Below the pieces are notes generated by a model. The model saw only the letters and a program-made list of their open reading frames with translations. It was not told the DNA's origin and did not search any database. The position numbers and the translations under genes are program-made. Source: Mobula birostris (Eukaryota). Taken from it: DNA of 64,000 nt. Below, piece by piece: positions 6,440-55,870 of this stretch. The stretch lies in contig NC_092400.1 of the NCBI RefSeq assembly GCF_030028105.1, positions 30,648,206 through 30,712,205 of the forward strand, written 5' to 3'. Each line of letters starts with the position of its first letter. Within the stretch, counting starts at the first letter, position 1.

Positions 6440-6907
6440 TCAGCCTCCACGTAGCCGGAGCAACAGAGAGATAGTGGTTTGTGGTCTGATGTTGTAGTCG
6501 GAGAGCAATCGCCCATCCTCCAACTGTTTGCCCTCGTAAATCAGGCGCTGCTGGTCGGGTCTGACCCCTTCCTGCCGATGGACCCGCGCTTTAAAATTCT
6601 GCACGGACTCAGAGGGCATTACGTCGTACGTCGTCGTTTTCCCCTTGTCATTCAGGAGAAATATCTGCATGGATTCCTCTTTCCTGACCAGCAACATGAC
6701 GGTGGGGCTGGGGTTGAGGTTGTAGTAGCTCAGACTTCTCTGGTCCTGCATCTCCACGCTTTGGCCATTTTGCACCATCAGACGCTGTTGCAAAATGGGC
6801 ACCTTGGTCTTTTCCTGGATTTTCATCTTGAGAGTCGACACTTGAATGGAAGGGTCGACATCAAGTTCGAAACCATCGCCGGTGATAAACCTCACCTGAA
6901 GTCTCAT
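6440..6907 (-). CDS. isg15: ISG15-like tandem ubiquitin-like modifier, copy 1 (155 aa)
   Basis: Two UBL domains ([10 protein letters not shown]... and [12 protein letters not shown]...[16 protein letters not shown]). Ends in LRLRGG then stop with no pro-peptide, as in fish ISG15. Acceptor ttctcctttctccacag lies 12 nt before the ATG, and an ISRE lies upstream. Confidence 0.92.
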
Positions 6908-8277: not shown

Positions 8278-8660
8278 ATTCTTTGTCGACAGTACCGGAA
8301 GTCAGGACGAATCTGAAGAAAATCTGATCCGCAGCTTTTTTTCTTTGCCCTTTATTCCGCACCGATTTTCAGCTCCGGTCCGGGTAAATCAATAGAAATT
8401 CTCCAGCTGCTGCTGATCGGTATCACCGCTCCCGCAACTCTGAGTCTCTCCGCCTCCCCCGGCTCGCTTTATCTTCTGCTCCCGTTTCTGAACGTCACCG
8501 CGCCGCTGGGCTGATCTCAAGGCCCGCTGTCGCTGTGTTGACAAACAAACCAATCAGGTTCCAGCCGAAGTTTCGTTTCCGAAAAAATCCCCGCAGTGAA
8601 TTGGAAAAGCGTGCGCCCTGTTACAGGGTTCAACGCTATCGGCTGATTCACTTTCGGATT
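8278..8660 (-). promoter_or_regulatory. Promoter and non-coding exon 1 of ISG15-like copy 1
   Basis: CpG-rich. Candidate donor GTAAGA at 8277-8272. CCAAT at 8550-8554. ISRE AGTTTCGTTTCC at 8569-8580. kB-like GGGGATTTTT at 8583-8592 (minus). IRF-like GAAAGTGAAT at 8646-8655 (minus). The TSS cannot be determined from sequence. Confidence 0.75.
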
Positions 8661-14649: not shown

Positions 14650-15117
14650 TCAGCCTCCACGTAGCCGGAGCAGCAGAGAGATGGTGGTTAGTGGTTTGAT
14701 GTTGTAGTCGGAGAGCAATCGCCCATCCTCCAACTGTTTGCCCTCGTAAACCAGGCGCTGCTGGTCGGGTCTGACCCCCTCCTGCCGATGGACCCGCGCT
14801 TTAAAATTCTGCACGGACTCAGAGGGCATCACGTCGTACGTCGAGGTTTTCCCCTTGTCATTCAGGAGAAATATCTGCATGGATTCCTCTTTCCTGACCA
14901 GCAACATGACGGTGGGGCTGGGGCTGAGGTTGTAGTAGCTCAGACTTCTCTGGTCCTGCATCTCCACGCTTTGGCCATTTTGCACCATCAGACGCTGTTG
15001 CAAAATGGGCACCTTGGTCTTTTCCTGGATTTTCATCTTGAGAGTCGACACTTGAATGGCAGGGTCGACATCAAGTTCGAAACCATCGCCGGTGATAAAC
15101 CTCACCTGAAGTCTCAT
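14650..15117 (-). CDS. isg15: ISG15-like tandem ubiquitin-like modifier, copy 2 (155 aa)
   Basis: Intact ORF ending in LRLRGG. Six amino-acid differences from copy 1 (S20A, N65S, T92S, I123V, R141K, Q143L). Same acceptor 12 nt before the ATG. Confidence 0.92.
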
Positions 15118-16475: not shown

Positions 16476-16860
16476 AATTTTTGTCGACAGTACCGGAAGT
16501 CAGGACGAATCTGAAGAAAATCTGATCCGCAGCTTTTTTTCTTTGCCCTTTATTCTGCACCGACTTTCAGCTCCGGTCCGGGTAAATCAATAGAAATTCT
16601 CCGGCTGCTGCTGATCGGTATCCCTGCTCCCGCAACTCTGAGTCTCTCCGCCTCCCCCGGCTCGCTTTATCTTCTGCTCCCGTTTCCGAACGTCACCGCG
16701 CCGCTGCGCCGATCTCACGGCCCGCTGTCGCTGTGTTGACAAACAAACCAATCAGGTTCCAGCCGAAGTTTCGTTTCCGAAAAATTCCCCGCAGTGAGTT
16801 GGAAAAGCGTGCGCCCTGTTACAGGGTTCAACGCTATCGGCTGTTTCACTTTCGGATTCC
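16476..16860 (-). promoter_or_regulatory. Promoter and non-coding exon 1 of ISG15-like copy 2
   Basis: ISRE AGTTTCGTTTCC at 16767-16778. kB-like GGGGAATTTT at 16781-16790 (minus). Consensus IRF element GAAAGTGAAAC at 16843-16853 (minus). CCAAT at 16748-16752. Confidence 0.75.
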
Positions 16861-24069: not shown

Positions 24070-24300
24070 ATATTGAGTCAGCATTGATGGGGCCAGGAAA
24101 AGCGATGGAAAGAAAAGGAACCGAAACTACGGCGTTATCCACTGAAATCGAAATGGGCGCGGTGCTGCCATTAATCAGCTCGAGCGATGACAGCCAACCA
24201 GAGCAGTGACGTGCATAAAATGTAATGTACCGGCAAATTTCACCATATTAGAATAATTTGAAGGCGGGGCTGGCGACCGGCTTATAAGGAACTTCTCAGC
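24070..24300 (+). promoter_or_regulatory. OASL promoter
   Basis: AP-1 TGAGTCA at 24074-24080. ISRE-like GGAACCGAAACT at 24117-24128 and GAAATCGAAA at 24144-24153. TGACGT at 24207-24212. GC box at 24262-24270. TATAAG at 24283-24288. Confidence 0.75.
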
Positions 24301-24356: not shown

Positions 24357-24527
24357 ATGGCGCTACACGAAATAGACCCCAAGAAACTGGACGACTTCAT
24401 TAAAAAGAACTTGGAGCCAAGCGGGTTTAATGTCGAGGTGAGAGAGGCCATGAACAGGATCTGCGAGTTTTTAAGAAATCAGTGTTTCACCAAACAAACC
24501 GACGTTAAAGTGATCAAAGCCGTTAAG
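24357..24527 (+). CDS. oasl: OASL exon 1 (coding part)
   Basis: [21 protein letters not shown]...KVIKAVK. Start context acgATGG; donor AAG|gtgagt. Confidence 0.9.
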
Positions 24528-27500: not shown

Positions 27501-30500
27501 ATTCTGAACTAAAGGAGCAGAACAAAGCTCCACCATGTTAATCCTGCACACAAAACATATGCTGGCTATGTTAAACGTGATTTCAATTCTAATTCTGGGA
27601 ATGTTTGAAAACAACAATAATTAGATGTGTAACTTTTTTTTTGTTGACAGGGTGGATCATCAGGAAAAGGAACAGCTTTAAAAAATAGCTCAGATGCAGA
27701 TCTCGTCGTCTTTCTCAGTTGCTTCAAAAGTTTCCAGCACCAGAGAGACACCAGGCATGAAATTCTTGAGGGAATTCAGGCAATGCTGGATAAATATTCT
27801 CAAAGCCTTGCATATCAAGTCGATAATATCAATATCAACATCATAAAGCAAAGTACCACATCGCCAAAATCTCTGAGCTTTGAGCTGCAATCAAAGAAGA
27901 GTTCAGAGACCGTGTCGTTTGATGTTCTGCCAACCTATGATGCATTAAGTAAGAATTAATAGCAATGATACGTTGACTATAATTAATAGTAATGTTACAT
28001 CTCAAATGTAATTTTAATTCTTCTGTCACTGCTTCTGTGGATAGGCGGTTTGAAAGGAGCTTGTCTGATTTGCTCTCTTCAGAGTCTTATTCTGAGTCAA
28101 GTTGTTGCTGCTGTTGTTGAGGAAGAAAATGCACTCAGTGACCATTTTATTCAGTACTTCCTGTAATCTTGGCCTTCTGCTGCTGTAGCCCATCCACCTC
28201 AAGTTTCGAAGTGTTGTGCATTCACAAATGTGCTCCTGCATGGCTCTGCTATAACACAAGGCGATTGAATTACTGTCACCTTCCTGTCAGCTTGAACCAG
28301 TCTGGCCATTTTCCTCTGATGTCTCATTAACAAGGAGAGTTCACCCACTGAACTGTGCTCACTGGACGTTTTATCTTTTTTAATGTATTCTAAGCCATCT
28401 CTAGTGACTATTGTACATAAGAATCCCAGGAGATCGGCATTTTCTGAGATACTCAAACCACCCTGTCTGGCACCAACAATCATGCCACAGTCAGTCACTT
28501 AGAATGCATTTCTTCCCCATTTGGATGTTTGGTCCAAACAACAACTGAACCTCTTGACCAGGACTACATACTTTTGTACATTGAATTGCTGCTATGTGAT
28601 TGGTTGATTTGATATTTGCATTAACAAGCAGGTGTACCTAATAAAGTGGCCACTGAGTGTAGATTACAGTTCACTTTTTGTCTGTATATGGCACAGAAGA
28701 TCCTTTCATAGGAGAAATAACAAGGAATATTAACCCTAAATGTTACTGATATTGCTTTACCACTGACATTAAACCAGTTTGATAACAAAATGAATTCCAG
28801 GGGAAATCTTGGGTAGCAAGTCTAAAACTTGCTCTTAAAAGATAATATCTGCCTTTTTCCTTTCCTTTCATAAGAAAGGGATTCATTTTCTTGGCCACTC
28901 TTACCAAGATGCAAAAAGCATTAGGCATTACCTTGGGTTAAATTTACAGGTGATTCTTGGCAGAAATAGAGTCACGGAACACTACAGCACAGAAACAGGC
29001 CCTTCAGCCCATCTACCCCATGCTGAACTATTATTTTGCCCAGTCCTATCAACTTGTACCTGGACCACAACCCTCCATACCACACCCATCTATGTATCTA
29101 TCTGAATTTCTTTTAAATGTTGAAATTGAACCCACAGCCATCATTCTGCTGGCAGCTCATTCCACACACTCACAACCCTCTTGTGTGAAAAAGTTCCCCC
29201 AAATATTCCCCTTAAACCAGGGGTTCCCAACCTGGGGTCCACAGGCCCCTTGGTTAATGGTGCATGACATAAAAAAGGTTGGGGACCCCTGCCTTTAAAA
29301 AAAATTGCTTCTCAACTTTAAACCATAACCTCTATTTCTAGTGTCACCCAACCTCAGTGGGGAAAAAAGCCTGCTTGCTTTTACCCCATCTATACCGGTC
29401 ATTATTTTGAATACCTCTATCAAATCTCCCCTCATTCTCCTTTGCTTGTTATGCAAACTTCAGCAAACTCTTTCTGGGAACCTTTGGGATGGTGGAAAAT
29501 ATCCTGAGGTTAAATAAACTGGAGTGAATCCAATAGAATGGCCTGTTTGGTCTTGGAAGTGATACTTGACCAGATATTAATCAATAGTCTTTTGACCATG
29601 TTCTCATTCATCATTTTATTTCTTGCAGCACCACTGCATAATACAAGCAAAGCACATCTCGAACTAATCCAATTTGCAAACAATAACGAGATGACAGATG
29701 GAGAATTTTCTGCTTGTTTTACGGAACTTCAGAGATCATTTGTGAAGCAGCAATTTCCAAAGGTTAAAGACTTGATTCGCCTGCTGAAATATTGGTACAA
29801 GGAGGTGAGTGACGGAAGAAAGTGATAATGGTTAATCATTGAAAGCCTATAGAAGGGTTGTTGTATCAAACCTAAAATGCTATCTTCCTTTGATATCTCA
29901 GATTACACCTTCTTCCTCTTTGGCATTTCCTCAGGATCATGGAGTAAGTGTGTCCCTAGTCCAATGCATCAGGTTCTCAATACAGTCTTGAATATCCCTT
30001 CTCCAAGTTTGAATGGTTATGGACCGAAGATCCCCAGAATCTTTGGGGATGTTGCTATTTGCTTTTGTCTGCCAAGGACCTGCCCAATAGCCAATGCAGG
30101 AAACCCATGAGATACCATTGTATGTTTGTTGGTAGAACACAGCTCTCCAATGAAATCACTGACTTCCATGGTACAATTTTGGATTGAGTCCCTAGTTTCC
30201 AGAGTATCCTCCCAGCATGCAACCTGCTTCAGGCTAGAAATGGTCAGAAAGACATTTCTAATTGAATTCAAAATTTATTTTTGATTCAATTTCTCATTCG
30301 GTTGAGATTTAACCAAAGGATGTGATGGTCCTCTCTGCTTGACTGATGGCACCACAGCACTATCAGAGATTGGACAACATGTACTCCCCAACTGACTGAC
30401 AATATACAGATCATTTCGTCATTTCCATCATTGCCCTGTGTGAAATCTTGCTTTACACAAATGGGGTACTTAAATCCAAGTCTTTTCTCTATATGTTCTT

Positions 30501-33500
30501 CTGGTACTCTCAGAACATTCATAAGGCCAAGAAAACAGGAGGAAGAGTCAGCCCATGGGAGTTTGACTTCAGGCTGTGATCGTGGCTGACCTGACCTAGA
30601 TCTCAGTGCAGATTCAGCAATTTGTGTGGTGGAGATGTTGAGATAGGGGCCACTCGGGAATGATCCCATGTAGCCATTGGTCTAGGTGTGGTCTTGGCAT
30701 GTAACCTCAGGGAGGCTGTTTCATCAGAGAAAATAATGAAGATTCGAAGTATAGAACCAAAACAGAGGGTAATGAGTGTGCTTAACATCACATTTGCTTA
30801 TTGGTGATTGTCAATAATTCTCCCTAGTATGTCAAGCCACGGAAGTCAGAGCTGAGAAATGGAGCACGACTGCCTGCAAAGTATGCCTTAGAGTTATTGA
30901 CCATTTATGCCTGGGAGGAAAGTAATCATCAAGAGAGATTTGACATGGCTGAAGGGTTCCGCACAGTCCTGGAACTGATCTGCAGATATCAGGATCTATG
31001 TATCTACTGGACTAACTACTATGATGTCAATAATGCAGTTCTTGCAGACTTCATAATCAAGAAACTCCACAACAGAAGGTAAGGTTCCCAACCACACTTC
31101 AAACTATGCCAAATAATGGGACCCTATGTTTTTAAATTGGGTTCACCTTCTGGATTCTTGTACATACAGGTCCAATAGAAAGTATTACATGGCATCACAT
31201 TCTTAAAACATAAGACCACAAGGTATAGGAGCAGAATTAGGCCATTTGGCCCATCAGGTCTGCTGTCATTTTATTATGGCTGTTTCAATTTTCCCCTTAG
31301 CCCCAATCTGCTGCCTTCACCCGTATCACCTCATGCACTGATCAGTCAAGAATCTATCAATCTCTGCCTTAAATATACATAAAGGCTTGGCCTCCACAGT
31401 TGGCTGTGGCAAAGAATTCCACAGTTTCACCACCCTTTGGCTAAAGAAATTCCTCCTTATTTCCAATCTAAAAGGACACCCTTCTATTCTGGGGCTGTGT
31501 CCTCTGGTGTTAAACTCTCCCACCATAGGAAACATCCTCTCCACATCCACTCTATCATGGCCTTTCACCATTCATTAAGTTTCATTGAGATCACCCTCAT
31601 CCTTCTGAATTCTAGTGAGTGCAGGCACAGAGCCATCAAATGCTCTTCATATGACAAACCATTCAATCCTGGAATCATTTTCGTGAACCTCCTTTGAACC
31701 CTCTACATTTCCGAAGGTAACATCTGAATGTATCTCTTAATGTTCCTCATTTCCTAACTAACCACTGTTGCCTACCTTACTGAGATGATTGACTTCAGAG
31801 TCCTCAGCCTTATTTACAATTCTCTACATCATTACAGTCTACCGTCTGTCACCTCACCATTTTTTGCCTCCTCAAGCTCTTTTAGCCAGTGTTTCTATTT
31901 CACTTTTTGGCCATTTTCCATCAGTAGTAGTATTTTCTGTCAGCTTTCTCTCACCTTATGGAGTTTTCCGTAGAGTACTTCCTCATTTCAAAGTTTGACT
32001 CAAAATCTCAGAGTACATTCCTCACATTTTGTGGATGTCCATTTCTGTTTCTGTTGTGATGGCAGATGGGGAATGTCTAGATCTGTATGCATTGTGACAT
32101 GTTTTCAGTGATACATCTGTTTGAATTATTGTTACCATGTTTGGGAATACTGTGATGATTAATGACAAATTCTGAGGCTGCGGAGGAATGGAGAGTTGAG
32201 GCCACAGACACTACCATTGTAGCGGACTAGAGCTGGGCAGGAAAGTTGATTCCTTTTTCTGCTCATTGTGCTGCCTGTGTATGGGATGGGGAATGGGGGG
32301 CTTTGATGTTCTGATGTTCCTGTCATTCATTCGTTTTTTTTAATTTTGTGGATGTCTGTGAAGAGTAAGAATTTCGAGTTGTGTACTGTATACTTTCTCT
32401 GATAATAAATTGAACAATTTTGTCATAAACTGATGGAGGATTAATGCAAATTGATCACAAAGATGGCCATTATACGCAGCGCGTGTACTGTCAGCAAATA
32501 GCTCAAAGTTCAATGTTGTCATTGGAATGGTTTTATTTTTCAGACCGATCATTCTTGATCCAGCTGATCCAACTGGAAACGTGGCTTCATCAGATGGTTG
32601 GAATGTGATGAAAGATGAGGCCAGGAAATGGCTAAGCATGCCTTGTGTCTCTAATGTTGAGGCATGGGATGTCCAGGTAAGAGTTTGAATAATTGATTTT
32701 CAGATATAAGGGAGTGGAGATACATTATTCTCCACTTTCTTTCACCCTGCCAGTGTCTGGCTACTGATAAACATCCCAGACTGCCTCTGCCCAGGGGATA
32801 TGCTACAGTCTGTCGCAGGCCTTCTGATTTTGCACTGCTTGAATTGTCCTCTATGGTAATTTGCAGTCTTTGGTGCTGAAAACCAGTCACCTTACCTCAC
32901 TATGTTGCACATTATTGGGTGGAGTTTCGAGCTAAGCAAGGTCCTGGTGAAGATGACACATGTATTACGTGCAGATTTGAATGCCTTGTGACATGGTTCT
33001 ATTTCATTATCTAGGTTAATCATCCTAAATGTTTAAAGCCTAACCATTTTAAAATACAGTTGATTACTACGTAATACACAACCGAAGCAGGGGGTGACCC
33101 AGCTTTTGGGGTCTTGAACTGTGGATTTATACAACATGTTTAATATTGGAAAAAAACTTCTTGAGGTGGCAATCTTATTGAAACCCCTCAAATATTGAAA
33201 GGGCTAGACTGTGGACGTGGAGTGGATGCTTCCTACAGTGGAGACTCTAGGACTAGAGGCCAAGCCTCAGAATAGAGGGACATTCATTCAGAATGGCGAT
33301 GAGAAGGAACTTCTGTAACCAGAGGCTGGTGAATGTGTGGAATTCATTGTCACAGACAGATGTGGAGGCCAAATCACTTAGTGTATTAAAAGAGGAGTTT
33401 GATTGGTTCTTGATCAGTCAGGGCGTCAAAGGTTAAGAGGAGAAAGCAGAAGTATGGGGTTGAGAGGGAAAATATATCAGCCATGATAGAATGGTGAAGC

Positions 33501-35507
33501 AAACTCAATGGGCTGAATGGCCTAATTCTGTAGCTATGTCTTATGGATTTAAGTTTTCAATGATGTGTTTGGGAAAGCTGATCAGCAGTAGTATCTGGGG
33601 CTGTGGAGGAATGGGCAGTTGAGGTTATAGACATAACTATTTTACCCAGGTCAAGCCAAAAAAGTTCAGTTCTGGTTGATTTCTTTTTCTCCTACTCCTT
33701 GTGTTCGATTCACTAAGTTGCTTGACGACAACTGGTAGAAATGATTATAGAATTCAACAGAAAAACTGAGTTACAACAAGTGAAATTAACAAGTATCTAA
33801 CCTGTAACTTGATGATCACACCAAAGTGGGTTCCTTTTTTGATTGTATCTTCAGCTGTGTAACATTAATGAGACGTGGTTTAATATCACAGGCACATGTC
33901 ATGAAATTTATTATCTTTGCGACAATGCAGTACATAATAGAGGAAAAAATGAACTACATTATGTGTGTGTGTATATTATATCTTAAATAGTTGAATTAAA
34001 TAAGTAGTGCAAAAATGAAAGTTGTGGTGTAGTTTTCGTGGCTTCAATGTCCATTCAGACAGGAAGAAGTTGTTGGGTGTGACCTTCAGGCTTCTGTACC
34101 TCCACCCTGATGGTAGCAATGACAAGAGGGCATGTCCTGGGGAGGAGGTTCTTTAACGAAGGACGCCACCCTTCTGAGGCATCGTTCCTTGAAGATGTCC
34201 TGGATACTACGAAAGCTAGTGCCCATGATGGAGCGGACTAATTTTACAACTCTGTGCTGGTTACCTAATCCTGTGCAGTAGCTCCCCTCCCCCACACCGC
34301 CCATACCAGACGGTGATGCAGTCAGCTAGAATGCTCTGTCGAAATTTGCAGGTGTTTTTGGTGACAGGCCAAATAGTGGAGAATGGAGCTCCAAATGAAC
34401 AGCAAATCAGAGTTGTCTGCTGATTGAGACCATGATATACAAGATATTAAGAGGAATAGATAGAGTGGACAGCCAACGCCTCTTCACCGGGGCACCACTG
34501 CTCAATACAAGAGGACATGGCTTTAAGGTAAGGGGTAGGAAGTTCAAGGGGGATATTAGAGTAAGGTTTTTTACTCAGAGAGTGGTTGGTGCGTGGAATG
34601 CACTGCCTAAGTCAGTGGTGGAGGCAGATACACTAGTGAAGTTTAAGAGACTGATAGACAGGTATATGGAGGAATTTAAGGTGGGGGGTTATTTGGGAGG
34701 TAGGGTTTAAGGGTCGGCACAACATTGTGGGCCAAAGGGCCTGTACTGTGCTGTACTATTCTATGTTCTATGACAGCCTACTCTGCACTATTCTAGCTCG
34801 TATTCCCACAGCACGCATCCACCCTCACTTCAGCCTTTGCAATTTATTCCACAGAGTGCTCTTGGTGCAAGTGTAGTTTTGCACACTAACGACACCCATA
34901 ACTACCCTTCAAGTTGTCGTTTCCCATCTCCCTCTTTTGTTTTCTGTCGCCTCTGAAGTATAAAAGGAACATATTTTACTTCTGCCCATTTTTGTTTTGT
35001 TTACCTCAGCCAGTGAAGACATTCCAAGTCACGGTCACGACCCTGAATGGTAACTCGTTACAGCAAAATGCCAGCATTTACAACAAGGTCTCTGAGATCA
35101 AACGTGGCATCCAGGAAAGGTGGAACATCCCAGCTTTTAAGCAACGCCTGCTATTCAAAGACACCATTCTGGATGATAGGATCACCTTGCTGGATGCCAA
35201 GATCTTCTTTGATGCAGAAATCCAGCTGCTCACCCTGAGTGTAATGGAGATATTTGTCGGGATAGACGGGCGTAACCTGACGATCCAGGTTTTGCCAAGT
35301 GACAAGGTTTCAAGTTTAAAAGCTGAAATTGAATCCCTGGAGCGAATTCGGCGAAGCCAGTACTATTTAACTTTTCAATCAACGCCGCTTGAAGATGAAC
35401 GTACACTGCAATCTTATGGCATTAAGCAATATTCTACCATCCTTGTCAACCTGAGAGTGCGTGGTGGCAGCGAGATTCAACTTTCCAATGCAGAGGATCC
35501 TAACTAA
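24357..35507 (+). CDS. oasl: 2'-5'-oligoadenylate synthetase-like protein with C-terminal tandem UBL (508 aa), join(24357..24527,27651..27948,29629..29804,30828..31078,32544..32676,35010..35507)
   Basis: All introns are GT-AG with compatible phases (0,1,0,2,0), giving a 1527-nt spliced frame with no internal stop. OAS signatures: [66 protein letters not shown]. The last exon encodes two UBL domains. Confidence 0.95.
25000..25800 (+). mobile_element. L1/Tx1-like LINE 3' fragment nested in an antisense L2-like fragment (about 24750-26010)
   Basis: Peptide [15 protein letters not shown]...CDRC...LVHAVWSCP is the C-terminal CCHC region. The flanking minus-strand peptide is [12 protein letters not shown]. 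Confidence 0.65.
27651..27948 (+). CDS. oasl: OASL exon 2 (P-loop and catalytic D72, D74, D148)
   Basis: ttgacag|[22 protein letters not shown]...[11 protein letters not shown]|gtaaga. Not in the ORF track; translated by hand. Confidence 0.93.
28132..28659 (-). mobile_element. Non-autonomous Tc1/mariner element in OASL intron 2
   Basis: TIRs CACTCAGTGACCATTTTATT / AATAAAGTGGCCACTGAGTG followed by TA. Remnant HTH peptide [22 protein letters not shown]. Confidence 0.8.
29218..29291. mobile_element. Tiny hAT-type MITE (74 bp)
   Basis: TIRs CAGGGGTTCCCAACCT / AGGTTGGGGACCCCTG and an imperfect 8-bp TSD. A related decayed copy lies at about 45970-46050. Confidence 0.6.
29629..29804 (+). CDS. oasl: OASL exon 3
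   Basis: ttcttgcag|...[35 protein letters not shown]|gtgagt. Confidence 0.93.
30828..31078 (+). CDS. oasl: OASL exon 4
   Basis: ctccctag|YVKPRK...[16 protein letters not shown]...[10 protein letters not shown]...LCIYWTNYY...KLHNR|gtaagg. Confidence 0.93.
31205..31700 (-). mobile_element. CR1 LINE 3' fragment
   Basis: Peptide [10 protein letters not shown]...TRGH...[17 protein letters not shown]. Confidence 0.75.
32544..32676 (+). CDS. oasl: OASL exon 5
   Basis: tttttcag|(R)[30 protein letters not shown]...AWDVQ|gtaaga. Confidence 0.93.
34432..34771 (+). mobile_element. CR1 LINE 3' end
   Basis: Peptide [16 protein letters not shown]...TRGHGFK...[14 protein letters not shown], with a (TTCTATG) tail. 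Confidence 0.8.
35010..35507 (+). CDS. oasl: OASL exon 6: tandem UBL domains, LRVRGG and a 12-aa tail
   Basis: ttacctcag|[14 protein letters not shown]...QRLLFKD...MEIFV...[39 protein letters not shown]. Confidence 0.93.
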   Translation, partial: PVKTFQVTVTTLNGNSLQQNASIYNKVSEIKRGIQERWNIPAFKQRLLFKDTILDDRITLLDAKIFFDAEIQLLTLSVMEIFVGIDGRNLTIQVLPSDKVSSLKAEIESLERIRRSQYYLTFQSTPLEDERTLQSYGIKQYSTILVNLRVRGGSEIQLSNAEDPN

Positions 35508-36141: not shown

Positions 36142-36151
36142 AATAAATAAA
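36142..36151 (+). terminator. Putative OASL polyadenylation signal
   Basis: Overlapping AATAAATAAA about 635 nt after the stop, followed by GT/T-rich sequence. Confidence 0.65.
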
Positions 36152-46339: not shown

Positions 46340-49050
46340 GCATGGATTTACCAGCACGGTGTTCTACCAAGAATCCCCTAGGAGTTTCCAGTTTCCACTG
46401 CTGCTGAATTAGAGAGGGTAGTCAGCCAGTTCCTGCGAAGATGGCTGGGTTTACCGAGGAACATCAGCAGCATCGCTCCGTACAGGAATAACTGCAAACC
46501 GAGGCTCCCCCTGAAGTCCATCGAGGAGGAGTTCAAGGTTTGGCGAGCAAGAGAGGTGCTGCAGTTCTGGGAGTCTTCAGATCCAAAAAGGTTGCTGGAG
46601 CAAGAGTGGCAGTGAGAACTGGAAGAAAGTGGAGAGCAGAGGCTGCAGTGGAAGAAGCTGAGGCACGACTGTGCCACAAAGTGCTGGTGGGGACAGTTGC
46701 CAAGGGAAGAGTTGGACTTGGAAGCCTTGAAGTCCCCCATTTTGACAAAGTACAAGGGAAGGAGTCACAAGAACTGGTCCGGAATGAAGTAAGGGCAGCT
46801 GTGGAGGAGGAGAGGATCAGCAGAGCAGTGGCAATGAAACAGCAGGGAGCCTGGACCAAATGGGAGCAGGTGATCAAGCGAAAGATCACGTGGAACGATC
46901 TCTGGAAGGTGGATCCATACTGCATCAAGTTCCTTATCCAGGCTGTTTATAGAGAACAAGGTGGATGATCTTAAAAGGAGACTCACCTAATGCAGGGAGA
47001 TGCAGAACTGCTGTGTATTCTGTTTCACCAAGACCTGGCTCTCCCCTGCCACCCCCGACTGTGCCATCCGACCGGAGAGATTTATGATCCATCGGATGGA
47101 CCGCACGGCATCTTCGGGCAAGACGAAAGGAGGTGGTGTCTGCTTACTGATCAGCACTGGGTGGTGCTCGGACACAGTGGCACGGACAAACTCCTGCAGC
47201 CCAGACCTGGAACACCTGTTGGTGAAGTGTTGTCCCTACTATCTGCCACGGGAATTCACCTAGGTCATACTGACAGCGGTCTACATTCCCCCCCAGGTGG
47301 ACGTGGAGTGTGCTCTGAACATACTGTGTGCCAACATCAGTGAACTTGAGACCAGGTATCTGGAGGCTTTGATCATTACGGCCGGGGACTTTAACCAGGG
47401 CAACCTCAGAAAGGCACTGCCAAAGTTATACCAACATGTCTGCTGCTCCACTAGAGGCCTGAATATACTTGACCACTGCTACACAGCAGTCAAGGATGCC
47501 TACCATTCCGTCCCACGACCTCGCTTCGGAAAATCGGACCATCAGGCCATACTCCTCCTCTCGGCTTACAAACAGAAACTGAAGCGGGAGGTCACGGTGT
47601 CAAAAGTAGTGTTGCGTTGGACGGAGGAAACGGATGAGGTCCTCCGTGACTGCTTTGAATCAGTGGACTGGTTAGTATTCAAGAATTCGTCAGCTAACCT
47701 CGATGAGTATGCCTCAGCTGTCATGGACTTTATTTGGAAATGCACGGACACTGTGAGTCTCGCAAGACGATCCGGGTATTCCCTAACCAGAAACCTTGGA
47801 TGAATTATGAGGTCAAGTCCCTTTTAAAGGCTAGGGCTGCGGCTTTTAGGTCCAGGGATACCAGTTGCTACATGGAATCCAGGCGTGAACTCCGGAAAGC
47901 CATTAAGGGCGCCAAGAGGCAATATTGAGCCTAGTTGGAAGCCCAGGCTTGCATTTGGGTCCATTCCCAACGCCCCCATTGTGAAACTTGAAGTCCCCCA
48001 TTTTGACAAAGTACAAGGGAAAGAGTGACGAGAACTGGTTCAGAATGAAGTAGGGGCAGCTGTGGAGGAGGAGAGGACCAGCAGAGCAGTGGCAATGAAA
48101 CAACAGGGAGCCTGGACCAAATGGGAGCAGGTGATCGAGCGAAAGATCACGTGGAATGATCTCTGGAAGGTGGATCCACACCACATCAAGTTCCTTATCC
48201 AGGCTGTTTATGACATCCATCCTAGCCCATCCAACCTGCACTGCTGGGGCCTTGCAGAACGACCAGCTTGCACCCTCTGTGAGAAGACCAGTACGCTAGA
48301 GTACATTCTGAGCTGCTGCCCCAGAGCTCTTGCCGATGGCCGTTATCAGTGGCAGCATGACCAGGTCCTCCGGACAATTGCTAAAATATCTGCAGCACCC
48401 CTAACATCTGCCGGAAAACAAGTCCGGTCAAGAATACCATCTGCTTTGTCAAAGAGGGGGAAAATCGAACAGAACACCAGAAAGCAACCGGGTTGCTCTT
48501 CACTTCACAGTATTGGAAGCTAAAATCAGACCTGGGAAAACAGCTGCAGTTTCCACCCCACATCACAGAGACTACATTGCGACCTGACGTTGTGTTTGTG
48601 GTCTGACCCATTGAAGCACGTTTTTATGCTTGAGCTTACCGTGCCGTTGGAAGAACGCATGGAGGAGGCCTACGAGCAGAAAAGAGCTAAGTATGAGGAT
48701 CTGAAGAACAACTGCCAAAGAAGAGGCTGGAGAGCAAAGTTTTGGCCCATGGAGGTCGGGTGTCGTGGCTTTGCAGGCCAGTCACGCTCAAAGTATACAC
48801 TGCACTTGGAATCACGGGAGAGACAAGAAGGAGAGCCATTTCTACCGCCATAGATGCAGCAGAGAAAGCGTCAAGATGGCTCTGGATAAAGAGGGCAGAT
48901 CCGTGGATTGCTGCTAGGGCACAGGCCAGGGTCTGATCAACCCCGGTCGGGTCACCTGGGCGAGGGTGTACGATGTTGAAAGACCCAAAACACCTGTTTG
49001 ACCCCAGGTAACATCACTGATGCTGTGTCCTAGCTTAGCATCATACAGAT
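46340..49050 (+). mobile_element. Hero-clade (R2-group) non-LTR retrotransposon 3' part with restriction-like endonuclease, interrupted and partly duplicated
   Basis: CCHC-like CTLC...LEYILSCC, HDQVL, RPD, MLELTVPLEERMEEAYEQKRAKYEDL, EVGCRGF. Confidence 0.8.
46951..47950 (+). mobile_element. Rex1/Babar-like APE endonuclease fragment
   Basis: Peptides CFTKTWL, SGKTKGGGVC, AGDFNQ, ILDHCY, GKSDH. Confidence 0.75.
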
Positions 49051-52272: not shown

Positions 52273-55200
52273 TGTAACCCCCTGGGAAAGATTTCACTGC
52301 TTCCATAATGGTCTTTCTGTAGCAACAGTGTTTGGGTGGTGGTTAGAGATAACGGGTGCTTTGGAATGTGAGCTGTCCAATGAAGGGATTGTGCTTTCAT
52401 GTTGTGTGCTTGACACCGGTAAGAGCTGGATCTTTTGTTCGGCGGGAGATGAAGGGAGAAGACGCCGGAGAGAAGAGGTCGTGGGACTCGACCCAGAGCA
52501 GGAGCCATGATTCGATGAAGCCCGAGGAGATCGAAGGAGGTTCGGTGAAGGGGAAACCATGAGCTCCAACCTGTGCACATTAACATGGGCCCTTTTCTTT
52601 CTTTTGCTTTTTCTTTACTAATCCTTTAGTCAAATTAAGAATTATAAAGCTAAATCATTTAATTGTATGCAGTATACTGTCTGTTATTTCGTGGTACTGG
52701 TTTGTAAAAGGGTAACGAATCACAGAGCATCCACACAAATGGGGATTTCAGGGTGAGCTTTCACCTCAATCTCACACGTTTGGTGGGGCTGGAGATTGTC
52801 TTCCCTAGACGTACGCAGCCAATGGAACCAGAGTGTTTCAATTGTGGGGGCTCATCCGGGATCAATTTCATTGGATGCTGTGTGATTGCCCAGAGGTTGT
52901 GTGTTTAAGTCTGTACTAAACTATTGTCTGGTAAAGCGATTATGTTACATAGGTATGGATGCTGCCAGGGTTGAGCGGTGATGTACATCCGTGTGGTTAC
53001 CGGCAACGAATGTGTGCGTGTTGGGTGGGGTACATATTTGTACTCCTGTTGGATTGTTAATTTGACTTTGAAGTACTGTTAAAGGTATAGGCAAAGTTAC
53101 GATTGTGAGGTGGAGATTTGAAAAAATGGCGGTCAGAGACTGTTTTAGTTCAGACTAGCACTGACGTATTGGCAGTGGAACTGCCTGGTACTACTGGGGC
53201 CCCGGTAGAGTGGGGCCATGGACTGTCCATACTTCCTGGGAGGAGGAGAGTTTAGGGGAGCAGGCCGAATCACAAGTCGAGTCTCCTGTAGCTGGAGGCA
53301 GAGATTTCAAAGACAGGGTTCTCTCGTTTCTTCAGAGCGAGGGGAAGGAGTGGTCTGAATGGAATGTCTAATCAGTTCCCCAGGGAAAAGTGAGAATTCT
53401 GAGTTGGTAGCGGCTCTTACCACTCTGTCGAATAAATGGAAAAATGTCCAGGTTCAGAGTCCTGGCTATCGTAGGCTCCGTTTATTCTCAGGAACGAATC
53501 CCACCCTTAAAGGGGAAGAGGAGTATGAGAGTTGGGCGGAGCAGACTTCTCAGTTGTTAGATGATTGACAGTGCTCTGATGATGTAAGACAGCAGTGATT
53601 GGTTGAGAGTTTGAGGGGGCGGGCTGTTGACGTAGTGAGGGCTGTAAGGCACAGAACCCCCTTGCCACTTCTGCAGCCGACATACAAGCACTAGAGAAGG
53701 TGTTTGGTGCGACTGGAAGCCCAATGGAGATCATGACGGGGTTTCAGAACGTGTCAAGAGAAGGGGGAGAAGCTTTCTGGTGACATCCTTCAGCTGAAGA
53801 GGCAACTAAGTTGCTTGTGGTGCTGAGGGGCCATTCAGACGGCTGAGGTGGATCAGTTAAGAATGGACCAAAGAGCGACAGGCGCCCAGTCCCAGAACTT
53901 GATCGCATGGGGTCCCCGAGTGTCTCATAAGACGTGCACTCCTCCCTTGTTTGTTGAGCTGATCAGAGAAGTACGAGAGAAGGAGAATGCATTGGAGGAG
54001 TGGGAGGACTCCGTCAGCAGGGTACAGTCCCCAGTAGTGGTCCTCTGTGGTAAAGTAACCACAGATAGCCTGCCCCGGGGAGTGGTAGAGGAGATTGTGG
54101 CTGAGTTGAGAACTGAGATATCCCGGTTGTTATCAGTGGGTGTGCCCCCCCCCGTATGATGGAGCTGATAGGGAGGTGGATGGTCTAAGGGCATGGACTA
54201 TGCAGAGGGCTGCCAGCAGCCTGGGTCCCATGAGAAGGGGAGCGGGCGGTGTTGTCTGTTATAACTGTGGTGAAGAGGGACACTTCAGGCGGGAGTGTGA
54301 GCGACAGGAAACCCCTCGGAGAGTGAGCCCCCGGTACCTAAGCTGAGAGAGACGCTGGGAAAGTTATAAGAGACCCAGTGAGGGGATGGTCTGGCATCTT
54401 GGGGGAACATATTCCCAGCAATAGGAATACACTAAAGCAAAAAACCCCATTCCTGAAGGTTTAGTGGGGCCAAGCTCCAGTGTATCACTATGGATAGAGG
54501 GTATCTATGCCAGAGCCATACTTGACACAAGGTCACAGGTCACTCTGCTGTACCGTTTGTTTTACAACCAGTATTTGACGCATTTACCACTGACGCTACT
54601 CAGTGCACTGGAGATCTGGGGTCTTAATGTATCTGCCTCTCTGTATGATGGTTATTTGTCAGTGAAGCTGGAGTTGTCAGAGGCTGATGTGGGAGTGGCT
54701 GAGGTCCTTGGTACATTAACACTAGTTTGTCCGGATCCCGCGAGAAGGGCGGCGTTTCAATTCTTGTGGGGACAAATACTCCTGTTGTGAGGAGACTCAT
54801 GAGGGCCTGCAAGGAGGGAGCTGGAGAGGGCTTCCTAGGAACATTATCCGTTCACCTGGTGGTTCGAGCTGCTTTCGAGGAAGTTCGTGGCCACACCGGG
54901 CCAGATAATGAGCTTAGATGAGGGACTGTGTGGTTCACCCAGTCAAGGTCAATCATGTTACTGCCCAGGGATGCAAGAGTGATGGGAAACCCCAAATTTC
55001 CCGGAATGCCTGAGGCCGAGCTCCTCTTGCTGGATGTTTTGGAAGTTCACCAGGAGGAGTCGGGCTTACCTGCTGGGGTGCTGGTGAGGCCCGAACTGCA
55101 GAAGCTCTCGGTTGTACAGGTGAGCAGGATGGCAGTGATCGTCAGGAACGCTACGAAGAGGGAGGTCACCTTCAAGCAGGGGATGTCCATAGTGCATCTC

Positions 55201-55870
55201 TTCCCGGTGATGGTAATGTCTAGTGTCCCTGTCAGACAAGCTGGGGAGAAACTATCTGCCTTTTACACCTGGGGTGGACTTTGTGCTTTGTATGAAGGGG
55301 TGACTAATTTTGGTGGGGGTGGAGGTGGGGGAGACTGTAACACCCTGGGAAAGGTTTCACTCCTAACGTGTTGATCTTAATGTAGAAGCAGTGGTTTGTG
55401 TTATGGTTAGAGATAATGGGTGCTTTGGAATGTGAGCCGTCCATTGAAGGGAGTGTGCTTCATCCTGTGTGCCTGACATTGGGGTGAGCTGGGACTTTGT
55501 TTGGCGGGAGAAGATGCCAGCGAGAAGAGGTCGTAGGACTTGACCTGGAGCAAGGTCATGATTTGATGAAGCTTTGGGAGATCGAGGGAGGATCGGCGAA
55601 GGGGAAACTGTGAGCTCCAACTTGTCACAATAGACTGTTTCATTAAAATGGGCCCTTCTTTTTTTTGCTTTTTCTTTACGAATCCTTTAGTCAAATTAAT
55701 TATAAAGCTAAATCGTTTAATTGTCTGTTATTTCGTAACAGTAACAAATCACGCAGCATCCACACAAACAGGAGATTTCGGGGTGGGCTCACACCTCAAC
55801 CTCACACGTTTGCTGGGGCTGGAGATTGCCTTCCCCAGACTTACACAGCTGACAGAACCAGAGTGTTTCA
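52273..55870 (+). mobile_element. Internally deleted Ty3/Gypsy LTR retrotransposon with PNMA-like Gag
   Basis: LTRs at 52273-52840 and 55336-55870 (TGTAAC...TTTCA) with a 4-bp TSD CCTT. tRNA-Pro-type PBS TGGGGGCTCaTCCGGGAT at 52845-52862. Purine tract at 55312-55335. Gag motif YRRLRLFSG...GEEEYESW, Zn knuckle CYNCGEEGHFRREC, protease AILDTRSQVT. No RT or integrase is seen. Confidence 0.92.

What the first reader, a model, noticed from the sequence alone, without database searches (positions are those of the whole stretch)
35451..35507. OASL ends in a masked diglycine motif (LRVRGG plus 12-aa tail): candidate protease-gated, conjugatable 2-5A synthetase
Seen: the second UBL ends ...VNLRVRGG followed by [12 protein letters not shown] and stop. 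This is the layout of a UBL pro-protein, whereas the neighbouring ISG15s expose LRLRGG directly. Established: human OASL lacks the diglycine motif, avian OASL retains an RLRGG motif and has been proposed as a conjugating ISG15 substitute, and mammalian pro-ISG15 is matured by removal of a short tail. Inference: this OASL could be processed by a host USP or a viral deISGylase and then attached to targets, or its UBLs could act as a protease decoy or sensor. It would do so in an animal that also has ISG15. Val at the ubiquitin-L73-equivalent position may change E1 or DUB selectivity.
Basis: partly seen in the sequence, partly recalled or inferred. Interest (0 to 1): 0.8.

Follow-up and report, generated by a model that had tools for sequence, protein, structure and literature searches.

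The report
Ray OASL with ISG15-like attachment tail
This manta-ray antiviral enzyme ends in a capped attachment motif already known from birds and shared across sharks and rays, so it is likely trimmed and glued onto proteins; unusually, its docking surface resembles mammalian ISG15.

Summary
Observation confirmed: an intact six-exon, 508-residue OASL ends LRVRGG + 12 residues + stop. The capped layout is not new: chicken OASL is also made with residues after LRLRGG, conjugates in cells and is cut by viral proteases (PMC8764230). The diglycine is old and conserved: 27 of 30 cartilaginous-fish units, plus lungfish, amphibians and a bird, but none of 4 therian mammals. Tails run 3-21 residues, like a disposable pro-piece. 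Val73 is probably minor: 2 of 29 units, and published structures say this tail does not choose the E1. At five published positions that keep ISG15 away from UBA1, this OASL has Y/T/P/L/N (human ISG15 W/T/P/F/N; ubiquitin R/I/Q/H/V). The pattern holds across cartilaginous fish, while the neighbouring free 'ISG15s' keep ubiquitin's R and Q. A second UBA1-class E1, a UBA7 candidate, is in the genome. Best reading: a likely conjugatable pro-OASL, ancestral rather than a bird substitute for ISG15, probably charged by a dedicated E1. Nothing was tested biochemically and no RNA reads were seen.

The parts
24144..24153 (+). ISRE-like element (GAAA-NN-GAAA) 204-213 bases before the start codon
   Evidence: weak alone: 15 matches in the window against 8.6 expected, 4 of 100 shuffles reach 15
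24357..24527 (+). OASL exon 1 (coding part)
27651..27948 (+). exon 2: NTase, GGSSGKGT loop, catalytic D72, D74, D148
   Evidence: pig OAS1 triad D74/D76/D147 in PMC6307210
29629..29804 (+). exon 3: start of OAS1_C
30828..31078 (+). exon 4: OAS1_C
32544..32676 (+). exon 5: end of OAS1_C
35010..35243 (+). exon 6, UBL1; ends without diglycine
35244..35468 (+). exon 6, UBL2; 33 of 76 positions equal ubiquitin
35364..35450 (+). ISG15-type E1-contact patch: Tyr (35364), Thr (35370), Pro (35385), Leu (35442), Asn (35448) at ubiquitin positions 42, 44, 49, 68, 70
   Evidence: mapping from PMC10693564 and PMC10409785
35451..35468 (+). LRVRGG motif; Val codon GTG at 35457-35459; predicted cleavage after Gly496
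35469..35507 (+). 12-residue tail and stop codon; predicted disordered
36142..36147 (+). AATAAA, candidate polyadenylation signal
6440..6907 (-). free tandem-UBL gene (ISG15-like), 155 aa, LRLRGG then stop, ubiquitin-type R42 and Q49
14650..15117 (-). second free tandem-UBL gene (ISG15-like), LRLRGG then stop

Best explanation
This is an intact ray OASL, a 2-5A synthetase fused to two ubiquitin-like domains, whose 12-residue tail is likely a disposable pro-piece that a host deubiquitinase would trim so that the exposed Gly-Gly can be attached to proteins, as reported for chicken OASL. Steps: (1) shown: open gene, catalytic aspartates, GG plus tail, conservation. (2) inferred: interferon induction and 2-5A synthesis on dsRNA. 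(3) inferred: routine cleavage after Gly496, probably by a USP18-like or general USP. (4) inferred: charging by a dedicated E1, most likely the UBA7 candidate on contig C20 rather than UBA1, because UBL2 carries the ISG15-type patch. (5) inferred: isopeptide attachment to itself and to other proteins, concentrating the synthetase; viral deISGylases could reverse it. The arrangement is likely ancestral in jawed vertebrates and lost in therian mammals; Val73 is likely a tolerated variant.
For: GG in 27 of 30 cartilaginous-fish UBL2 units found with an anchor independent of the motif; 2 of the 3 exceptions are merged gene models that leave the exon at LRxR. L71 29 of 29, R72 27 of 29, G76 29 of 29 among motif-anchored units, while UBL1 has no GG. 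All 19 units with their own stop carry a tail, 3 to 21 residues; in paralog L006 a stop at tail codon 4 leaves the old tail visible in the UTR. GG also in lungfish, caecilian, axolotl, zebra finch and coelacanth models, absent in dog, bat and two marsupials. Chicken OASL: pro-form, conjugate bands, GG-modified lysines, cut by 7 of 14 nairovirus OTUs. Chimaera OASa works with RNase L in yeast. Patch: Y42 26 of 26, T44 25 of 26, N70 24 of 26, P49 16 of 26; last 42 residues score mammalian ISG15 up to 39 bits against 23-24 for single ubiquitin; swapping these ISG15 positions to ubiquitin's gave UBA1 charging. Three E1 genes of the ubiquitin class found.
Against: No biochemical or RNA evidence for this gene. 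The chicken work used overexpression, and GG remnants cannot tell OASL from ubiquitin (my inference; the parts I read show no GG-to-AA control). The C20 E1 scores closer to UBA1 than to UBA7 (77.7 vs 37.6 bits; 86.6 vs 59-60) and lacks the aromatic residues that mammalian UBA7 uses against this patch. RNase L was not found in this genome (one search gave two IRE1-like hits, named from recall) and USP18 was not sought. The motif is damaged in some paralogs (LQLQSG, LRLLGG, LRLHGG, LQLRGG). Tail positions 4 (Gln) and 8 (Ala) are 12 of 12 in long tails, more than a pure throwaway piece needs.
Confidence: 0.64

Rival explanations
1. The motif is kept for non-covalent mimicry: the UBLs would bind USP18, RIG-I-type sensors or viral proteases as an ISG15 look-alike or decoy, with or without trimming, and are never attached.
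For: The ISG15 Trp123 site is a known deISGylase recognition site, and the ray has Tyr there. Avian UBLs bind dsRNA and support 2-5A and RIG-I functions without any role shown for conjugation. Every unit keeps a cap (19 of 19), none exposes GG in cartilaginous fish.
Against: Near-invariant Gly-Gly over sharks, rays and chimaera is what adenylation needs; mammalian OASL keeps the RIG-I role after losing GG; chicken OASL conjugates; lungfish and axolotl models end directly in GG.
Confidence: 0.17
2. The family conjugates, but this Val copy is drifting under relaxed selection or has become resistant to trimming.
For: The other Val copy has an in-frame stop; three Leu paralogs sit beside it; position 73 is Leu in 27 of 29; substitutions at ubiquitin Leu73 can hinder deubiquitinases (recalled, paper not held).
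Against: The gene is intact; Val is also in M. hypostoma and, apparently independently, in a skate; Leu73 changes were the exception that still passed E3 transfer (passage in PMC6136576).
Confidence: 0.1
3. Trimming would expose a C-terminal diglycine degradation signal, so the tail protects the enzyme and cleavage removes it.
For: Free C-terminal GG is a known degron for a cullin-2 adaptor (recalled); all 19 units are capped.
Against: Does not explain conserved L71, R72 and the E1-type patch; the free neighbours expose GG without a cap.
Confidence: 0.05
4. The exon is part of a long OAS3-like polyprotein, as RefSeq model P0001 (1739 aa) has it, with GG as an internal cut site like polyubiquitin.
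For: Several RefSeq models of rays and sharks join 2-4 units.
Against: P0001 bridges units with window text that looks retroelement-derived (46382-46615), joints differ between species, no GT donor lies at the P0001 joint, each gene has an in-frame stop and AATAAA, and a Logan-derived skate protein on a 1997-base contig is a single unit with tail.
Confidence: 0.04

Closest known systems
Avian OASL (chicken; PDB 7SBI; PMC8764230)
   Same: OAS domain with catalytic aspartates, tandem UBL, LR[L/V]RGG followed by a short tail; 7SBI is ranks 7-8 in the fold search; zebra finch has a 6-residue tail.
   Different: Ray UBL2 has Tyr/Thr/Pro/Asn at positions 42/44/49/70, finch Arg/Thr/Glu/Leu. The ray has nine free ISG15-like genes in the same cluster; birds lack ISG15. 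Val at 73.
Mammalian pro-ISG15 and the UBA7-UBE2L6 cascade
   Same: Tandem UBL, short removable tail (5-8 residues), 3 of 5 E1-selectivity positions identical and 2 similar; 13 of 13 PDB hits of a 22-residue stretch are ISG15.
   Different: Fused to a 345-residue synthetase. Over both domains the free neighbours match ISG15 better (96 bits) than this exon does (71 bits).
Jawed-vertebrate OASa.U class (PMC10400998)
   Same: NTase-OAS1_C-UBL, described as the ancient layout; chimaera member couples to RNase L.
   Different: In the sections I read the paper does not discuss the diglycine, the tail or conjugation; its supplement was not seen.
Mammalian OASL
   Same: Same domain order.
   Different: No diglycine; the human protein lacks 2-5A activity.

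Membership tests
OASL / OASa.U | NTase + OAS1_C + C-terminal UBL in one open gene | tested here: met
OASL / OASa.U | three catalytic aspartates | tested here: met
   D72, D74, D148 (reference triad)
OASL / OASa.U | dsRNA-activated 2-5A synthesis | not testable with these tools
   shown only indirectly for the chimaera relative
OASL / OASa.U | interferon induction | tested here: inconclusive
   ISRE-like site at 24144; no RNA data
Conjugatable pro-UBL modifier (avian OASL, ISG15 type) | beta-grasp fold ending in an exposed xRxRGG | tested here: met
Conjugatable pro-UBL modifier (avian OASL, ISG15 type) | diglycine conserved, tail variable | tested here: met
   27 of 30 units; tails 3-21 residues
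Conjugatable pro-UBL modifier (avian OASL, ISG15 type) | cleavage after GG, E1 thioester, isopeptide conjugates | not testable with these tools
   needs bench work
UBA7 client (ISG15-type) | W/T/P/F/N patch in place of ubiquitin R/I/Q/H/V | tested here: met
   Y/T/P/L/N: 3 identical, 2 similar, 0 ubiquitin-type
UBA7 client (ISG15-type) | a UBA7 with the matching surface in the same genome | tested here: inconclusive
   second UBA1-class gene on C20, same contig as two IPK genes, but UBA1-like in score and patch
ISG15 (for the free neighbours) | free tandem UBL ending LRLRGG, N-domain closest to ISG15 | tested here: met
   N-domain: mouse ISG15 46.5 bits against 39-42 for single ubiquitin
ISG15 (for the free neighbours) | mammalian ISG15 E1 patch | tested here: not met
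   Q49 in 14 of 14 rows, R42 in 13 of 14 (rows partly overlap)
ISG15 (for the free neighbours) | orthology by tree or gene order with teleost and mammalian ISG15 | tested here: inconclusive
   no teleost or mammalian ISG15 sequence was held for the tree; agrin, the recalled human neighbour, is on C32 with no tandem-UBL hit there

The most novel reading that the evidence does not exclude
In cartilaginous fish OASL, not the free ISG15-like protein, is the native cargo of the UBA7 lineage; OASL and ISG15 began as neighbours that traded ubiquitin-like exons, and the surface that makes mammalian ISG15 UBA7-specific came from an OASL-type domain. ISGylation would then descend from the covalent attachment of a whole antiviral enzyme.
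Probability: 0.15. Interest if true: 0.82.

Novelty: new variant of a known kind. Interest (0 to 1): 0.5.

Why it matters
If true, conjugatable OASL is not a bird workaround for losing ISG15 but an ancestral jawed-vertebrate trait that mammals lost. Sharks and rays would run two interferon-linked modifiers from one gene cluster, with E1-contact surfaces reversed relative to mammals. That gives a cheap, direct test of an open question: which E1 charges OASL, and where ISG15-UBA7 specificity came from. The masked tail alone is ordinary.

Tried and rejected
RNA-run search gave no result, so transcript end, splicing and induction are open. Common origin of OASL UBLs and the free tandem UBL: not shown. 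Shared non-ubiquitin residues were 0.146 for the window against 0.134 +/- 0.041 for 24 control tandem UBLs (at least two controls look like cartilaginous-fish OASL pieces by their high scores); only the coelacanth model stood out at 0.43; OASL monophyly was not rejected, p-AU 0.398. The coelacanth UBL exon may be a mis-joined or captured ISG15-like exon, so it is weak support for ancestry. Single-sequence fold failed (pLDDT 35). RNase L family search returned IRE1-like hits only; the E1 UFD search found one of three E1s, so negatives from these searches mean little. The adjacent P2X gene scored nearest P2X2, not P2X7, so fine gene order with human OASL is not claimed. Atlas gave no result. Three papers were not held. 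No complex prediction: no full-length ray E1 or USP18 was held. Earlier-findings look-ups were empty.

Full report
Observation. The + strand frame reads ...[24 protein letters not shown] at 35451-35507. The exon starts at 35010 behind an AG. With five upstream exons it gives 508 codons, all junctions GT-AG, no internal stop, GG ending at residue 496. The first 507 residues equal RefSeq model P0001, named Mobula birostris. D72, D74 and D148 match the OAS triad given for pig OAS1. The folded exon shows two beta-grasp domains and a disordered end from residue 153; top fold matches are linear di-ubiquitin, chicken OASL and ISG15. The two free tandem-UBL neighbours end LRLRGG-stop.

What is already known. 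PMC8764230 (abstract, passages, parts 4 and 5 of 7 read) states that avian OASLs are translated with several residues after LRLRGG that must be removed, shows conjugate bands and GG-modified lysines for transfected chicken OASL whether or not cells were stimulated, and reports cleavage of the pro-form by 7 of 14 nairovirus OTUs and 3 of 6 coronavirus PLpros. So the capped layout, the conjugation and the viral cleavage are in print for birds. PMC10400998 (passages, sections 5 and 7) calls NTase-OAS1_C-UBL the ancient layout and shows a chimaera OASa working with RNase L. Seven searches listed no paper on the diglycine of cartilaginous-fish OASL or on ISG15-OASL linkage; I saw listings for most hits and passages for bioRxiv 693333, PMC6002735, PMC6307210 and bioRxiv 116772. 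The library lacks most subscription papers and I saw no supplements; the alignments in those of PMC10400998 may show the motif.

Conservation. With an anchor upstream of the motif, 27 of 30 UBL2 units from cartilaginous fish keep GG; two exceptions are merged models that leave the exon at LRxR, one is degenerate. All 18 named species sampled have at least one GG unit. Among 29 motif-anchored units (three near-copies in this genome left out; records ending before UBL2 and the single-UBL type not counted) position 73 is Leu in 27 and Val in 2, and all 19 with their own stop have a tail: 3 residues in 7, 12 in 7, 15-21 in 5. In paralog L006 a stop at tail codon 4 leaves the rest of the old tail in the UTR. 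GG also ends UBL units in lungfish, caecilian, axolotl, zebra finch and coelacanth models (8 motif-anchored units; one further axolotl record ends LREG) and is absent in dog, bat and two marsupials. No reptile tandem-UBL OASL and no monotreme was sampled. Inference: the motif is ancestral in jawed vertebrates and was lost in therians.

The locus. Contig C36 carries a P2X gene at 30.46-30.50 Mb, nine free tandem-UBL genes at 30.56-30.66 Mb and seven OAS units at 30.62-30.91 Mb, six with a GG exon. OASL and the free protein share a contig length in 4 of 4 species where both were listed (two Mobula, Hemitrygon, Heptranchias), which shows one chromosome, not adjacency. Agrin, the recalled neighbour of human ISG15, is on C32, where neither UBL search hit.

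Val73. It is a TTG-to-GTG change in 2 of 6 copies; the other Val copy has a stop in exon 3. It recurs in M. hypostoma and a skate. PMC10409785 (passages) says the LRLRGG interface is unlikely to set E1 specificity; PMC6136576 (passage) notes Leu73 changes still pass E3 transfer; PMC7047443 (passages) adds that E1 accepts alternative tails. An effect on trimming remains possible.

PMC10693564 (passages and section 8) and PMC10409785 map ISG15 W123/T125/P130/F149/N151 to ubiquitin R42/I44/Q49/H68/V70, and swapping four or five of them lets UBA1 charge ISG15. This OASL has Y/T/P/L/N. Across 26 units from other records: Y42 26, T44 25, N70 24, P49 16. The free neighbours keep Q49 in 14 of 14 rows and R42 in 13 of 14; bird, lungfish, axolotl and coelacanth OASL keep R42. 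The last 42 residues score ISG15 up to 39 bits, single ubiquitin 23-24; the same stretch of the neighbour scores ubiquitin 58, with ISG15 outside the 60 of 332 rows shown. All 13 hits of a 22-residue stretch are ISG15, though each is weak (E 0.19-1) and I chose both stretches after seeing the likeness. Against a simple descent story: over both domains the free protein matches ISG15 better (96 vs 71 bits), and a shared origin of the ray OASL UBLs with the free protein is not above controls. Convergence or old exchange between neighbours both fit.

Machinery. Three ubiquitin-class E1 genes were found: C34, UBA1-like; C21, UBA6-like (named from recall); C20, 60% identical to C34 on one exon and on the contig of two IPK genes, which fits the recalled human UBA7 region. 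It still scores nearer UBA1 and lacks mammalian UBA7's aromatic contact residues. RNase L was not found by a weak search; USP18 was not sought.

Mechanism and verdict. Most likely (0.64) a pro-OASL trimmed routinely, charged by a dedicated E1 and attached to itself and other proteins; avian UBLs also aid dsRNA binding (PMC6019448 passages), so non-covalent use (0.17) is the main rival. The polyprotein model is probably an annotation merge (0.04). PMC9680060 (passages) notes that most fish ISG15 lack a tail, so the bare neighbours are ordinary. The finding as written is a known kind. The new part is its age, its coexistence and linkage with ISG15-like genes, and the reversed E1 surfaces. Novelty: new variant of a known kind. 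Interest 0.5.

Noticed in passing
L033:4844-5119 (C36 about 30.91 Mb): The last OAS gene of the cluster has one UBL and ends CILL-stop, a CaaX prenylation box. CaaX-like ends occur in 34 stored OAS records from sharks, coelacanth, caecilians, turtles, lizards, a marsupial and other mammals, so membrane-anchored OAS (known for human OAS1 p46, recalled) looks as old as the diglycine type.
   Followed up: partly
P0252 / P0390 (coelacanth): The coelacanth OASL model's tandem UBL is 51% identical to a shark free ISG15-like protein but 30% to this OASL: a captured ISG15 exon or a mis-joined neighbour.
   Followed up: partly
L036 (C36:30.618-30.624 Mb): Near-copy of the window gene (447 of 459 bases in the UBL part) with an in-frame stop in exon 3; likely a pseudogene.
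   Followed up: yes
P0131; C36:30.64 and 30.56 Mb: A diverged ISG15-like type (83% identical) exists in two copies, one with an internal stop; RefSeq P0131 ends LRLCGG.
   Followed up: no
window 35464: A GT inside the GG codons matches the point where the M. hypostoma model leaves the exon; real use would remove the diglycine by splicing.
   Followed up: no
L004, L005, L003: Three OASL copies are 449-450 of 450 bases identical in the last exon and 300 of 300 downstream: very recent duplication, gene conversion or assembly duplication.
   Followed up: no
window 8571-8579, 16769-16777, 16844-16853 (-): ISRE-like sites upstream of both free tandem-UBL genes.
   Followed up: partly
window 46382-48853 and 53827-55374: Retroelement-like fragments (named from recall) in the gap after the gene; parts of them fill the merged RefSeq model P0001.
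   Followed up: no
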